64,000 bases of DNA from Mytilus edulis. Lineage: Eukaryota. The stretch is taken from the NCBI RefSeq assembly GCF_963676685.1, contig NC_092356.1, positions 30,194,001 to 30,258,000 on the forward strand, written 5' to 3'. Position numbers: made by a program. Within the stretch, counting starts at the first letter, position 1; every line of letters begins with the position of its first letter. Shown piece after piece: positions 60,401-64,000 of the stretch.

Positions 60401-63400
60401 AAATTTGATCCCTGGTCGGACTGTATAGACTTAGGAAGTCCTACTAATGTGAAAAATTTGATCAAAGCTTTGACGATAGTAGGTGTATTGATATTTCTTA
60501 GCGGAATAGCTTCAGGAAAGCGGGTAGATGTACACATGATTGTCAATAAATATGCATTTCCAGTCTTGGTCTTTGGTAAAGGTCCAACACAGTCAATTAG
60601 AACTCTGCTGAAAGGTTCGTCAAAGGCTGGAATAGGCAGAAGTGGTGCTGGTGGTATTTTCTGGTTAGGTTTACCAACAACCTGGCATGTATGACATGAT
60701 TTGCAGTATTCTGCAACATCATTTCTAAGTTTAGGCCAGTAAAAATGCTGCAAGATCTTAAGGCAAGTCTTCCTTATACCTAAGTGTCCAGCCAAGGGGG
60801 TGTCATGGGCAAGACCAATAATTTCTTGTCTATAAACTTTAGGCACCACCACTTGGTACACCACTCTCCATTCCTCCTCTGGGGTAGCATCAGGAGGCCT
60901 CCACTTCCTCATTAAAATGCCGTCCTGATGGTAATAGCATTCGGCCACTTTGTCTGCTTCCTCCTGTGGTTGAGCTCTCTGGCTGAGCTGAAGAACCTCA
61001 GGGTCTTTATGTTGTTCTTCAGATAAATTCTTTCGGTCTAATGAATGGCTGTTTACATCTGGCCATGGCATAATAACATTTTTGTTAACACTAGGTGGTT
61101 TTATAATTGCCTTTTCTGAGTTACCAGGACCTTCAATGTCAGCTATGAAAGTGTCAGAAAGGTCCATGTAATCAAACTTGTCTGTTTGCAAATTCTCATC
61201 TTGTTGTTTTCTAGCCATCGCCCTAGTAACAACACAAGCTGGATATAATTCAGCATCATCTTCAGGTGATTTAACATCCACCACTGGTTCACTGGTAACA
61301 ATTGGTTCAGCAACCACTTTGTTCCTAGCTAGATCATTTCCTAGCAATAATGTAACACCCTCAACAGGGAGATTAGGACGAACACCCACAATAACTGGTC
61401 CAGTTATTAAATCTGACTTCAGATAAATACGATGGAGAGGAACATCTATACAACCCAACTCTACACCTTGTAACAAAACGGAGGCACCAACAGAAGTCTT
61501 CTCGGACAAAGGCAACACACCTTCTAACAATAAAGACTGAGAAGCTCCAGTGTCTCGTAAAATCTTAATAGGCTGAAGAGTGGTATCATCAACAATAGAA
61601 ATAAACCCATCAGACATAAAGGGTTTATATTCCTCCATGTAATCACAAAAACTGGACTTAAAAGCCTGACGCGCAGGGCATTCCAATGTACTGGTAATAT
61701 AAGGTGTCGTACAAGCACTGGTCTTCGGCTTATTATCTCGTTCATTCTTCTTCTGGAGTCTAAAACAATCAGCCATCAGGTGACCAATCTTCTTACAATA
61801 AGCACAAGTCAGTGACTTCTTCTCAAAAGTATCAAATTTTGGACTAGACATATTATAACTGGACTGACTCTTATTCTGTGGAACAGGCTTACTATCAGTA
61901 TGCTCAGTGCTTTGATTTTTGTAATTTCCACTGGAAGTATTAACATTTTGACCCTTGAAACTTCTTTTATGTGAAAGAGTATAATTATCTGAAATAACAG
62001 CTGCATCATGTATTGACTCAACAGTTTTGTCGTCTAAATGTGTTTTTAAGTCTAAATGAACACATTGTTTGAACTCTTCTAATAACATCAATTGTCTTAG
62101 GTTATCAAAATTGTTGTTTGTTTTCTTTGAAGTAAGCCATTTATCAAATAGATCTTCTTTTTCCCGAGCAAATTCCACATAGGTTTGCGAATCAAACTTT
62201 TTATAAGATCTAAATTTCTGTCTGTATGCTTCTGGTACTAGCTCATAAGCTTTCAAAACTTCCTGTTTCACCGTGTCATAGTCTGAACTTTTTTCTGATG
62301 GAAGTGCGGAGTATATTTCAGCGGCTTTACCCTCAAAAACACTTTGTAGCATTGTAGTCCAATATGGCTTTGGCCAATTCAAATTATTAGCAATTTTCTC
62401 AAACTGTGGAAAATATTTATCGACTGTTTTTTCACAAAATTTTGGAACCAAACGTATATTTTTTGCTGCATCAAAATAATCTGATTTCGACTGGACTTTA
62501 GTGTTGCTTTCTTCTTTGACCATTTCAATTTTCAGTTTTTCCATCTCTAGCCTTTCTCTCATTTCAAGTTCTTTTAATTTTAATTCATCTTCTTTTATTT
62601 TCTCCCTCTCCTTCATTTCCAGTTCTTTTAATTTAAATTCATCTTCTTTTTCTTTTCTCTCTATTTCCAACCTTTCCTTCATTTCCAGTTCTGCTTGTTT
62701 TAATTTAAATTCATGTTCTAATTCAAGCTGTTTTAATTTAAAGGCATCTACATTTTCGACCTTAAGTTCAAGAGCCTCTTCACCTAAAATTTCTGCGTCA
62801 ACTAATTTGTCTATAACCAAATTTTTTATAATTTGTTTTCTCATAGATACTTTAAAATTTAACTTCAGATGTTTAGCAAGCAACACTAATTCGTCTTTCT
62901 TTAAATTATCAAAAGTCTCCAGGTCTGGCGTTTTCAAAAATTTACCGGCATCAAATGCCATTTTGTAGAATTTTGTTGGCTAGTTATAATGAAAATATTG
63001 AAAAAATTTTGAATAATATATTTTCAGTCTCCCGGACGAGCCCCCAATTTCTGTTACGGCCAGAAATCGCCTTTAAATTGTAGCCAACAAAAGACACAAA
63101 TCAATAATAAAATTTAACAATATTTATTATACAAAAGTTTACAAGAAGTATTTTACAAATATTACTGATAACTTAACTGTCAAAATATGAGTCCACTCTT
63201 TTATCTTTATCTGTATCCGGAAATCTTTCGGAATCCAATCTGAATATTACGTTCACTACTAAGGTCACAATCCAGTATGATGTTGTTTGTAGAATAAAAG
63301 TGTCAATCCAAATGCTGTGAATACTAATGTCTATCAATGTCTATGTCCAAGTTTTAATTATGAGAGTTTAACTTTAGTGTCTGTATATATAATGTTATCA

Positions 63401-64000
63401 ATGGAAAATTCTAGAACACTCTATAATGGAACATTGTGGAAAATCCTGGAAAGTTACAACGGAAGTTTCTGGAATAACGTAGAAGTTTAAATTACGCATC
63501 TTTTATAAGGATCATTCTAGAAAGTTCCAATCATTCTGTGATTGTTCCAGTGATTCCTAAACTGCACAATTATAAGATTATTTGGTAAACAACTATCAGG
63601 CCATACAACACAAATTAGGCCAACATAAATAAACATAATAATTACAATATCATAACAATGTCGTAATAAAATTTACGGAGTGTCATTTTTAATCTTTTCT
63701 CTTATTAACTTCAGTAGTTTTTGCGTCAAAAGAGCACTCCTGTATATATTGTCCGTATAGCATGAACGAGCATAACGTATTAACTGAATTATGTCTCGTA
63801 TAGCATGAACATGAACATGCACGAGCATAACGTATTAACTGAGATATGTTCCGTATAGCATGAACATGCACGAGCATAACGTATAAACTGAGATTGTAAA
63901 TGTAATATCATTCGGCAGATGATATGTTACTGGTGAGAAATGAGAAAAATGATAATTCGAAAGTTGAAATCATCCCGTTTGTCATCGATTTTAGTGTGAA

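What the first reader, a model, noticed from the sequence alone, without database searches (positions are those of the whole stretch)
63384..63527. Heat-shock-element array in the LTR U3: candidate heat-activated retrotransposon
Seen: three perfect 3-pentamer HSEs plus further GAA units at 10-bp spacing (63429, 63439, 63449, 63482) within ~125 bp, the nearest ~13 bp upstream of TATATA in the direction of transcription. Known: nGAAn inverted arrays next to a TATA box are the HSF1/hsp70 promoter design, and plant ONSEN uses LTR HSEs for heat activation. Inference: an intact animal LTR element wired to HSF1 in a probably intertidal host, which could transpose under heat stress and confer heat inducibility on neighbours (here the duplicated cGLR 5' region).
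Basis: partly seen in the sequence, partly recalled or inferred. Interest (0 to 1): 0.8.

Follow-up and report, generated by a model that had tools for sequence, protein, structure and literature searches.

The report
Heat-shock motifs in a retrotransposon LTR
A very young, unbroken jumping gene in what is probably a mollusc genome carries three textbook heat-shock-factor binding sites in its promoter, which makes it a good but untested candidate for being switched on by heat, a design already shown in a flatworm and in plants.

Summary
The pattern GAA-nn-TTC-nn-GAA occurs 7 times in the window, against 1.04 expected. Six of the 7 lie in the two LTRs, three per LTR. In 20000 dinucleotide shuffles of the LTR, 0 reach three. 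Only the HSE spacing is enriched. All 16 GAA/TTC units of the array have a purine in front, against a 49% background. The LTR's two sense-strand TATA-like boxes lie 7 and 12 nt after a perfect HSE.

The carrier is a 6120-bp element on the minus strand (57538-63657). It has identical 606-bp LTRs, a 4-bp target duplication and one unbroken 1577-codon frame. The domain order, SCAN-like capsid, protease, integrase, RT, RNase H, marks it as Gmr1-like rather than ordinary Gypsy.

The best reading is an HSF-responsive LTR promoter. Nothing here shows heat induction or HSF binding. The LTR regions of four distant relatives carry no HSE, so the array is a lineage-specific gain.

The design is already published for flatworm LTR elements, including a Gmr1/Osvaldo family (PMC12801592). 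This is therefore a new member of a known kind, possibly the first in a mollusc. The intertidal host and the cGLR neighbour remain unproven.

The parts
57538..63657 (-). Whole LTR retrotransposon, 6120 bp, Gmr1-like (Ty3/Mdg4 superfamily). No breaks: 0 stops and 0 frameshifts in its single frame.
   Evidence: LTR pair. Single ORF. Domains.
63052..63657 (-). 5' LTR, 606 bp, TG..CA ends, 29.5% G+C. Carries the HSE array of the finding.
   Evidence: 100% identical to 57538-58143 over 606 bp. Read. G+C.
57538..58143 (-). 3' LTR, identical copy. Its HSEs are at 57890-57902, 57948-57960 and 58001-58013.
63658..63661 (.). 4-bp target-site duplication, upstream copy in element sense. Its partner is at 57534-57537.
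   Evidence: The same four bases flank both ends.
57534..57537 (.). 4-bp target-site duplication, downstream copy.
63515..63527 (-). Distal perfect-type HSE, 3 alternating units, LTR positions 131-143, GAA-first.
63501..63507 (-). TATA-like box (TATAWAW class) at LTR positions 151-157, 7 nt after the distal HSE. Alternative core promoter.
63462..63484 (-). Middle perfect-type HSE (63462-63474, LTR 184-196, TTC-first) plus one more in-phase unit 10 bp upstream (63482-63484). Together they form a gap-type extension.
63429..63451 (-). Step-type HSE: three same-orientation units at 10-bp spacing, LTR 207-229.
   Evidence: Definition of step type from a PMC4552642 passage.
63404..63416 (-). Proximal perfect-type HSE, LTR 242-254, TTC-first.
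63384..63391 (-). TATA-like run, LTR 267-274, 12 nt after the proximal HSE. Favoured core promoter; the start site about 25-31 nt further on is inferred, not mapped.
63123..63128 (-). The only AATAAA on the sense strand of the LTR (LTR 530-535). Inferred polyadenylation signal near the R/U5 border.
63030..63046 (-). Primer-binding-site-like 17-mer starting TGG, 5 nt after the 5' LTR. tRNA identity not tested.
   Evidence: Read. Similar 17-mers follow the LTR in relatives L005 (2 mismatches) and L003 (3 mismatches).
58144..58154 (-). Polypurine tract, 11 purines abutting the 3' LTR.
   Evidence: Read.
58228..62961 (-). Single gag-pol frame, 1577 codons, ATG to stop, uninterrupted.
   Evidence: It shares all 341 invariant columns of an 18-sequence family alignment.
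61963..62235 (-). SCAN-like capsid C-terminal domain of gag (aa 243-333). A zinc knuckle follows at aa 384-400 (61762-61812).
   Evidence: Pfam PF02023, E 1.4e-11. zf-CCHC E 0.027, below cut-off.
61312..61611 (-). Conserved block aa 451-550 with a D-T-G triplet at aa 470. Inferred aspartic protease.
   Evidence: No Pfam match. Column shares for the triplet are 1.0, 1.0 and 0.83 among 18 sequences.
59791..60846 (-). Integrase: zinc-binding, catalytic core and C-terminal domain (aa 706-1057). It lies upstream of RT.
   Evidence: PF17921 2.7e-21, PF00665 1.1e-11, PF22938 3.1e-09.
58879..59355 (-). Reverse transcriptase (aa 1203-1361).
   Evidence: PF00078, 2.2e-35.
58297..58692 (-). RNase H (aa 1424-1555).
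   Evidence: PF17917 3.8e-36, PF17919 4.5e-34.

Best explanation
The 124-bp block at 63404-63527 is a heat-shock promoter module in the U3 part of the LTR of a Gmr1-like retrotransposon. The proposed mechanism has five steps.
1. Under heat or other proteotoxic stress, trimers of the host heat-shock factor bind the three perfect HSEs. They bind the step-type and gap-type units more weakly. This step is inferred.
2. They recruit the transcription machinery to the TATA-like box 12 nt after the proximal HSE, or to the second box 7 nt after the distal HSE. This step is inferred.
3. Transcription starts in the 5' LTR and ends after the AATAAA in the 3' LTR, giving a full-length RNA of roughly 5.8 kb that encodes gag-pol. 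The layout is shown; its use is inferred.
4. The identical array in the 3' LTR, and the orientation-independent action of HSEs, could also affect flanking DNA. This step is speculative.
5. Both LTRs are copied from one U3 template during reverse transcription, which is established knowledge of LTR-element replication. The array was therefore already in the parent copy and has passed through at least one replication cycle.
For: - The arrangement is far beyond chance: 3 perfect HSEs per LTR against 0.005 expected, with 0 of 20000 shuffles reaching 3. In the window, 6 of 7 matches are in the LTRs.
- The enrichment is specific to the 2-nt spacer that defines HSEs.
- An independent feature not used to select the sites also fits. 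All 16 of 16 units in LTR 100-260 have a purine at position 1, against a background of 0.493 from 2270 units (P 1.2e-5). Among LTR units outside the array it is 5 of 9. This fits the AGAAN preference described in PMC2871787 (passage).
- The only two sense-strand TATAWAW boxes of the LTR sit 7 and 12 nt after perfect HSEs, against 0.031 expected per 20 nt.
- The LTR has one AATAAA, 260 nt further on.
- The carrier looks competent and young. It has identical LTRs, a target duplication, PBS and PPT, one unbroken frame with all domains and all 341 invariant family columns.
- Natural controls of similar composition lack the motifs. The LTR regions of four relatives (G+C 0.30-0.46, similar unit density) have 0 perfect, 0 gap, 0 step and 0 dimer HSEs.
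- There is a precedent in Macrostomum lignano, where 6 of 137 LTR families carry 1-4 canonical HSEs. Four of these rise more than 250-fold on heat, and by my reading of the passages these include all three families with 2 or more HSEs. Loss of the HSEs abolished the response (PMC12801592, abstract and passages).
- Oyster HSF1 isoforms activate HSP promoters in reporter assays (PMC7652795, passages).
Against: - There are no expression, binding or start-site data of any kind.
- There is only one copy of the family in reach. Its two LTRs are not independent, so there is no evidence that the array is conserved under selection.
- 0 of 4 relatives (46-57% protein identity) have HSEs in their LTR regions, so the array is not a clade trait.
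- The second TATA-like box would put two of the three HSEs downstream of the start if it is the one used.
- 9 of the 16 units read GGAA, which is also the core of other factor families.
- The internal region is CpG-poor (observed/expected 0.36, against 0.77 in the rest of the window). This would fit a history of methylation and hence silencing.
- In the flatworm, 2 of 6 HSE-bearing families were not induced.
- The host species and its HSF are unknown.
Confidence: 0.6

Rival explanations
1. The same sites are bound by heat-shock factor, but the trigger that matters is developmental or germline HSF activity, or general proteotoxic stress, rather than environmental heat. The array would serve to get the element expressed in cells where new copies are inherited.
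For: The sequence evidence is the same as for the main reading. Nothing in the sequence tells the triggers apart. That HSFs act in gametogenesis is recalled knowledge and comes from no call here.
Against: In the only tested animal case, the HSE-bearing LTR families responded to acute heat within 5-15 minutes (PMC12801592 passage).
Confidence: 0.12
2. The motifs are real HSEs, but the copy or the whole family is epigenetically silenced, so no induction is seen in the animal. The array is then a latent promoter.
For: CpG observed/expected is 0.36 in the internal region and 0.61 in the LTR, against 0.77 in the rest of the window. Two of six HSE-bearing families in the flatworm were not induced. 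The element sits next to a 4-kb satellite array.
Against: The LTRs are identical over 606 bp and the frame is unbroken, so the family was active very recently.
Confidence: 0.12
3. The block is a cluster of sites for another factor family with a GGAA/TTCC core (ETS-, NFAT- or Rel-like), giving tissue-specific or immune-responsive expression. On this reading the HSE pattern is a by-product.
For: There are 9 GGAA/TTCC in the 161-bp block, against 0.94 expected from the density in the rest of the window. There are three TTTCCA at 10-bp spacing, against 0.15 expected.
Against: - 7 of the 16 units are AGAA, not GGAA.
- Only the inverted 2-nt spacer is enriched. There are 0 STAT-type spacings of 3 or 4 nt and only 1 ETS-type GGAAGT.
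- Three independent perfect inverted triplets are not expected from GGAA clustering alone.
- The names of these site classes are recalled and come from no tool.
Confidence: 0.1
4. Chance or a compositional artefact of an A+T-rich LTR, with no function.
For: The LTR is 29.5% G+C, and the count of GAA/TTC units is not above expectation (25 against 21.8).
Against: 0 of 20000 shuffles reach 3 HSEs or 6 dimers. The enrichment is spacing-specific. Purine at position 1 in 16 of 16 units. TATA-like boxes adjoin two HSEs. Relatives' LTRs of the same G+C have none.
Confidence: 0.03

Closest known systems
HSE-containing LTR retrotransposons of the flatworm Macrostomum lignano (Mlig-id115|Mag with 3 HSEs, Mlig-id36 and Mlig-id55|CsRN1 with 2 and 4, Mlig-id38|Gmr1/Osvaldo with 1). 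PMC12801592; abstract and passages seen.
   Same: - Animal Ty3/Mdg4 elements with canonical nGAAnnTTCnnGAAn motifs in the LTR upstream of the start site.
- 1-4 motifs per LTR.
- One family comes from the Gmr1/Osvaldo clade.
- The acquisitions are lineage-specific and independent.
   Different: - Different phylum; the host here is probably a mollusc.
- The Gmr1/Osvaldo family there has one HSE, whereas this element has three plus a step-type unit.
- Induction and the need for the HSEs were shown there. Here nothing beyond sequence is shown.
ONSEN (ATCOPIA78) of Arabidopsis and other Brassicaceae, as described in PMC12801592 passages and the abstract of PMC13602373 in a search listing.
   Same: HSEs in the LTR make an LTR retrotransposon respond to heat through heat-shock factors.
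   Different: It is a Ty1/Copia element in a plant host, acts through plant HSFs and is experimentally validated. It shares no sequence relationship.
Helitron-borne HSEs in Caenorhabditis. PMC6927752: title and start of abstract seen in a listing. Also mentioned in PMC12801592.
   Same: A mobile element carries HSEs and can spread heat-shock-factor sites near host genes.
   Different: It is a rolling-circle DNA transposon, not an LTR promoter.
Heat-shock gene promoters such as Drosophila Hsp70 and Hsp83. PMC2871787; passages seen.
   Same: - Several HSEs of 3 or more alternating units within a few hundred bp upstream of the start.
- Gapped forms occur.
- The TTC-first orientation is common; here 2 of 3 HSEs are TTC-first.
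- Purine or A is preferred at unit position 1.
   Different: Those are host genes, and their HSEs are often longer than 3 units. The start site here is unmapped. GAGA-type motifs are absent from the block (0 GAGAG).
Gmr1 clade of Ty3/Mdg4 elements. Passages of PMC6238403, PMC8220671 and bioRxiv 10.1101/2025.03.03.638093.
   Same: The integrase lies upstream of RT. The order is SCAN-like capsid domain, then PR, IN and RT-RH. The clade is widespread in marine animals.
   Different: No reference Gmr1 sequence was compared and no tree was made. The best relative in the protein collection is 71% identical and unnamed.

Membership tests
LTR retrotransposon (structural definition) | Two direct terminal repeats with TG..CA ends and a short target-site duplication | tested here: met
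   606-bp LTRs, 100% identical. TG..CA ends and a 4-bp duplication read.
LTR retrotransposon (structural definition) | Primer binding site after the 5' LTR and polypurine tract before the 3' LTR | tested here: met
   A 17-mer starting TGG lies 5 nt after the LTR. 11 purines abut the 3' LTR. Similar 17-mers follow the LTR in L005 and L003. Which tRNA it pairs with was not tested. I recall a proline tRNA; ARAGORN found 0 tRNA genes in the window.
Ty3/Mdg4 (Gypsy) superfamily, Gmr1-like clade | Gypsy-type RT, RNase H and integrase domains | tested here: met
   PF00078, PF17917/PF17919, PF17921, PF00665 and PF22938, all above the curated cut-offs.
Ty3/Mdg4 (Gypsy) superfamily, Gmr1-like clade | Integrase upstream of reverse transcriptase | tested here: met
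   Integrase at aa 706-1057, RT at aa 1203-1361. Definition from passages of PMC6238403 and PMC8220671.
Ty3/Mdg4 (Gypsy) superfamily, Gmr1-like clade | SCAN-like C-terminal capsid domain followed by PR, IN and RT-RH | tested here: met
   PF02023, E 1.4e-11, at aa 243-333. Conserved D-T-G at aa 470, though no Pfam protease match. Definition from a passage of 10.1101/2025.03.03.638093.
Ty3/Mdg4 (Gypsy) superfamily, Gmr1-like clade | RT phylogeny groups it with reference Gmr1 elements | not tested
   No reference Gmr1 sequence was returned under that name by any tool, and no tree was built.
Canonical (perfect-type) heat shock element | At least three contiguous alternating nGAAn/nTTCn units | tested here: met
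   Three such sites per LTR. Definitions from passages of PMC2871787 and PMC12801592.
Canonical (perfect-type) heat shock element | Position within a few hundred bp upstream of the transcription start | tested here: inconclusive
   The array lies 12-136 nt upstream of one TATA-like box, but a second box lies inside the array. No start site has been mapped.
Canonical (perfect-type) heat shock element | Bound by heat-shock factor trimers | not testable with these tools
   No binding data. The host HSF is unknown.
Heat-activated HSE-bearing LTR retrotransposon (ONSEN / M. lignano type) | Canonical HSEs in the LTR promoter | tested here: met
Heat-activated HSE-bearing LTR retrotransposon (ONSEN / M. 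lignano type) | HSEs shared by the copies of the family | not testable with these tools
   There is only one copy in the window. No eukaryotic genome collection was open. Distant relatives: 0 of 4 have HSEs in their LTR regions.
Heat-activated HSE-bearing LTR retrotransposon (ONSEN / M. lignano type) | Strong rise of transcripts on heat | not testable with these tools
   No expression data in reach.

The most novel reading that the evidence does not exclude
A currently active Gmr1-like retrotransposon of a bivalve has independently built a three-HSE heat-shock promoter, making it a mollusc counterpart of ONSEN. This particular insertion has placed the array about 215-340 bp upstream of a TATA-like box (63743, + strand) in the duplicated 5' region of a cGLR-like innate-immune gene. 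One paralogue would then be wired to heat while the other (copy at 24603-24861, no insertion) is not.
Probability: 0.1. Interest if true: 0.7.

Novelty: new member of a known kind. Interest (0 to 1): 0.42.

Why it matters
If the array works as it reads, this would extend heat-shock-factor capture by LTR retrotransposons to a third, distant lineage: plants, flatworms and now probably molluscs. It would support the published view that this design arises again and again.

For bivalves, heat waves cause mass mortality and the heat-shock system is much studied. A named heat-responsive, recently active element would give a concrete handle on stress-linked genome change. It could be checked with existing RNA-seq and resequencing data.

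The paralogous pair of flanks, one with the insertion and one without, is a natural comparison for any effect on a neighbouring gene.

Tried and rejected
- **Chance or composition.** Rejected by shuffles, by the spacing control and by natural LTR controls.
- **Tandem-duplication origin of the three HSEs.** The spacings are 53 and 58 nt, and no internal repeat of the LTR appeared in the window self-comparison. I ran no dedicated low-stringency test, so this is weakly rejected only.
- **Other copies or solo LTRs in the window.** None beyond the pair.
- **Relatives with DNA.** One (L004, 517 bp) was too short to use. The other four have no HSE in their LTR regions. L001 has one perfect HSE in coding sequence and one between the pol stop and the polypurine tract.
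- **Protease.** No Pfam match at E up to 5. It is inferred from a conserved D-T-G block instead.
- **Neighbour genes.** 0 of 117 open frames of 65 codons or more outside the element and the arrays had a Pfam family at E 1e-4. At E up to 1, one frame gave Mab-21 at E 0.042, below cut-off. The Atlas gave mollusc clusters and a Mab-21_C cluster at 0.89, which is a lead only.
- **RNA genes.** Rfam gave 0 matches and ARAGORN 0 tRNAs.
- **Literature on molluscs.** Four searches found no report of HSE-bearing LTR elements in molluscs. The terms were: heat shock element + LTR retrotransposon + HSF1, heat shock elements/LTR/retrotransposon/bivalve, heat shock element + transposable element + oyster, HSE/LTR/heat stress/retrotransposon/mollusc. 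The library holds only open-licence PMC papers and bioRxiv, so absence there is not absence in print.
- **Bacterial promoter scan tool.** Not used, as it is irrelevant to a eukaryotic promoter.
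Full report
**What is at the coordinates.**
Searching the window for GAA-nn-TTC-nn-GAA on both strands gives 7 matches against 1.04 expected from 100 dinucleotide-preserving shuffles (sd 0.93, largest 4, none reaching 7). Six of the 7 fall in two blocks: 63404-63416, 63462-63474 and 63515-63527, and 57890-57902, 57948-57960 and 58001-58013. The seventh is at 3914-3926. On the + strand, GAA units also start at 63429, 63439 and 63449, exactly 10 bp apart. Another at 63482 lies 10 bp from the last unit of the middle HSE. 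The window holds no N, and nothing in it looked human.

**The carrier.**
- A self-comparison shows that 63052-63657 and 57538-58143 are identical over 606 bp. These are the LTRs of a 6120-bp element on the minus strand.
- The LTRs begin TG and end CA. The same four bases flank both ends (57534-57537 and 63658-63661).
- A 17-mer starting TGG lies 5 nt after the 5' LTR (63030-63046). Eleven purines abut the 3' LTR (58144-58154).
- Between the LTRs lies one uninterrupted frame of 1577 codons (58228-62961, minus). I count no stops and no frameshifts in it.
- Pfam places the domains as follows: a SCAN-like capsid domain (aa 243-333), a zinc knuckle (about aa 384-400, weak), integrase zinc-binding, core and C-terminal domains (aa 706-1057), RT (aa 1203-1361) and RNase H (aa 1424-1555).
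- No Pfam protease is found in aa 400-706. A conserved block at aa 451-550 holds a D-T-G triplet at aa 470, whose columns are shared by 100%, 100% and 83% of 18 aligned family members.
- The order is therefore capsid, protease, integrase, RT, RNase H. This is the arrangement that defines the Gmr1 clade of Ty3/Mdg4 elements (passages of PMC6238403, PMC8220671 and bioRxiv 10.1101/2025.03.03.638093). I built no tree with reference Gmr1 sequences, so clade membership rests on architecture.
- The frame keeps all 341 columns that are invariant in the 18-sequence alignment.
- With 0 differences in 606 bp between the LTRs, the insertion is very recent.

**Host.**
The exact protein is not in the protein collection. 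The best hit is 71% identical and unnamed. The best named hits are from the pearl oyster Pinctada imbricata (61-63%) and the scallop Pecten maximus (55%). Sea cucumbers, sea urchins and a sponge follow at 50-56%. A neighbouring open frame (29154-29921, +) has its nearest Atlas clusters in Mollusca. A mollusc, probably a bivalve, is the best guess. Whether it lives between the tides cannot be told from the sequence.

**Is the array more than chance?**
- In 20000 dinucleotide-preserving shuffles of the LTR, the mean number of perfect 3-unit HSEs is 0.005 (largest 2), and none reaches 3.
- Inverted dimers: 6 observed against 0.39, none reaching 6.
- Step-type: 2 observed, reached by 1 of 20000. 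One of the two overlaps the middle HSE, so only the one at 63429-63451 is independent.
- Gap-type: 1 observed, reached by 257 of 20000.
- The plain number of GAA/TTC units is not enriched: 25 against 21.8, reached by 4295 of 20000. The signal lies in how the units are arranged.
- A spacing control makes the same point. For spacers of 0 to 8 nt between inverted units, the LTR has 6 dimers and 3 trimers at 2 nt. Every other spacer gives 0-1 dimers and 0 trimers. The rest of the window shows 20-49 dimers per spacer with no peak at 2.
- A feature that played no part in finding the sites also fits. All 16 units in LTR positions 100-260 have a purine before GAA (9 G, 7 A). The share is 49.3% for the 2270 units elsewhere in the window (binomial P 1.2e-5) and 5 of 9 for LTR units outside the array. 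A purine, specifically A, at unit position 1 is the preference described for HSF in PMC2871787 (passage).
- The definitions of perfect, gap and step types are as given in PMC4552642 (passage).

**Promoter layout.**
In element sense, the positions within the LTR are:

| Feature | LTR position |
|---|---|
| Distal perfect HSE | 131-143 |
| TATA-like box (alternative) | 151 |
| Middle perfect HSE | 184-196 |
| Step-type HSE | 207-229 |
| Proximal perfect HSE | 242-254 |
| TATA-like box (favoured) | 267 |
| AATAAA (only one) | 530-535 |

- The sense strand has only these two TATAWAW boxes. They lie 7 nt after the distal HSE and 12 nt after the proximal HSE. The density of such boxes elsewhere in the window predicts 0.031 per 20 nt.
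- With the box at 267 as the core promoter, the start would lie near LTR 295. U3 would be about 295 nt and would hold the whole array, R about 255 nt and U5 about 50 nt. All of this is inferred.
- The box at 151 is an equally good match. If it is the one used, the middle and proximal HSEs would lie in the transcribed region. Only mapped 5' ends can settle this.

**Relatives.**
The one scan of genome contigs, made with the 18-sequence alignment, returned 5 loci with 46-69% identity over the best segment. All are short contigs filed under prokaryotic records. One (L004, 517 bp) is too short to use.

| Relative | Region examined | Perfect / gap / step / dimer HSEs |
|---|---|---|
| L001 | putative LTR 5464-6503 | 0 / 0 / 0 / 0 |
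| L002 | all 1738 nt after pol | 0 / 0 / 0 / 0 |
| L003 | 4760-5969 | 0 / 0 / 0 / 0 |
| L005 | LTRs 9398-9779 and 12887-13262 | 0 / 0 / 0 / 0 |

- G+C in these regions is 0.30-0.46, and the unit densities resemble those of the LTR here.
- L001 has one perfect HSE inside coding sequence and one between the pol stop and its polypurine tract.
- L005 and L003 carry a similar 17-mer right after their LTRs, with 2 and 3 mismatches.

The array is thus not a trait of the wider clade. It is a gain in the lineage of this element. Both LTRs of a new copy are made from a single U3 template, so the array was already present in the parent copy.

**What is known.**
- PMC12801592 (Mob DNA 2025; I saw the outline, abstract and 12 passages, not the supplements) reports on the intertidal flatworm Macrostomum lignano. 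There, 6 of 137 LTR families carry 1-4 canonical HSEs per LTR, in the Mag, CsRN1 and Gmr1/Osvaldo clades and in a Copia cluster.
- Four of these families rise more than 250-fold at 37 degrees. The response of one LTR promoter was lost when its HSEs were lost. By my reading of the passages, all three families with two or more HSEs were among the four induced.
- The authors name ONSEN of Arabidopsis as the validated plant case and Helitron1_CE of C. elegans as a DNA-transposon case. [quoted passage not shown]
- Oyster HSF1 isoforms activate HSP promoters in reporter assays (PMC7652795, passages).
- Four searches of the held library found no report of HSE-bearing LTR elements in molluscs. That library lacks most subscription journals.
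- The supplements of the flatworm paper, which hold HSE positions per family, were closed. A closer comparison of HSE-to-TATA distances was therefore not possible.

**Best explanation and rivals.**
I take the block to be an HSF-responsive promoter module that makes transcription of this Gmr1-like element rise under heat or proteotoxic stress (confidence 0.6).

Shown:
- the motifs and their non-random, spacing-specific arrangement;
- their place next to TATA-like boxes in the upstream part of the LTR;
- the intactness and youth of the carrier.

Inferred:
- HSF binding, the start site and heat induction.

Rivals:
- the same sites used by HSF in development or the germline (0.12);
- real sites on a silenced element (0.12), for which the low CpG content of the internal region is a hint (0.36 against 0.77);
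- another GGAA-binding factor family (0.10), for which the tenfold excess of GGAA/TTCC is the main argument and the strict 2-nt inverted spacing the main objection;
- chance (0.03).

**Surroundings.**
- The element sits in one copy of a segmental duplication: 19786-24861 matches 50170-57284 plus 63692-64000 at 80-94% identity.
- Each copy holds a 43-bp satellite array (22717-24605 and 53321-57284). The other copy lacks the element.
- The other copy also lacks 287 bp around the element (57285-57537 and 63658-63691), so there is no exact empty site.
- The duplicated flank has a TATA-like box on the + strand at 63743 (paralogue at 24654). The HSE array lies about 215-340 bp upstream of it.
- In copy 1, a frame about 3.7 kb further on gives a Mab-21 match below the cut-off (28525-28821, E 0.042). 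The next frame has an Atlas lead to a Mab-21_C cluster (0.89). At E 1e-4, none of 117 frames had a Pfam family.
- A cGLR-like gene is therefore plausible in copy 1. In copy 2 it would lie past the window end.
- I built and searched no joined exon model of this gene. The frames were searched one by one, so its structure and identity remain open.
- An effect of the insertion on that gene is possible by layout and untested.

**Verdict.**
The thing is a new member of a known kind: an HSE-armed LTR promoter, here in a Gmr1-like element of a probable mollusc. It is of moderate interest because it is clean, young and directly checkable with expression data. It is no longer a new principle.

Noticed in passing
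window 22717-24605 and 53321-57284: Two arrays of the same 43-bp satellite (43.5 and 92 copies, about 90% matches), each inside one copy of a segmental duplication. The 3' LTR of the element points into the second array from 253 bp away, so read-out transcripts from that LTR would run into satellite DNA.
   Followed up: partly
window 19786-24861 versus 50170-57284 plus 63692-64000: Segmental duplication at 80-94% identity. Only the second copy carries the retrotransposon, which gives a natural with/without pair of flanks.
   Followed up: partly
window 57285-57537 and 63658-63691: 287 bp directly around the element are absent from the paralogous copy, where the satellite abuts the conserved flank at about 24603-24605. 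Either there was an older small insertion into which the element landed, or a deletion in copy 1. Its nature is unknown.
   Followed up: no
window 63743 (+), paralogue 24654 (+): A TATA-like box is conserved in both copies of the duplicated flank, followed by 2-3 copies of a roughly 48-bp repeat. It may be the promoter of a + strand gene. The HSE array lies about 215-340 bp upstream of it.
   Followed up: partly
window 28525-29921 (+): Adjacent open frames give a sub-threshold Mab-21 match (E 0.042) and an Atlas lead to a mollusc Mab-21_C cluster (0.89). This may be a divergent cGLR-like gene.
   Followed up: partly
window 58144-63051 versus the rest: CpG observed/expected is 0.36 in the element's internal region, 0.61 in the LTR and 0.77 in the rest of the window. 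The coding part of the element is markedly CpG-poor.
   Followed up: no
window 40474-42837 and 32672-33419: Two further tandem arrays: a 64-bp unit with 37 copies and a 169-bp unit with 4.4 copies.
   Followed up: no
window 51100-51430, 52354-52674, 3153-3511, 12307-12441: Interspersed repeat copies at 75-91% identity, some inverted, unrelated to the LTR element.
   Followed up: no
L001-L005 (genome contigs): Gmr1-like retrotransposon contigs of 0.5-6.8 kb, and one inside a 350-kb contig, are filed under archaeal and bacterial MAG or isolate records. They look like eukaryotic carry-over in those assemblies. Named hits under Campylobacter and Thiodiazotropha are of the same kind.
   Followed up: no
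window 63220-63250 (LTR positions about 401-450): A second small cluster of 5 GAA/TTC units lies in the presumed R region, with non-HSE spacings.
   Followed up: no
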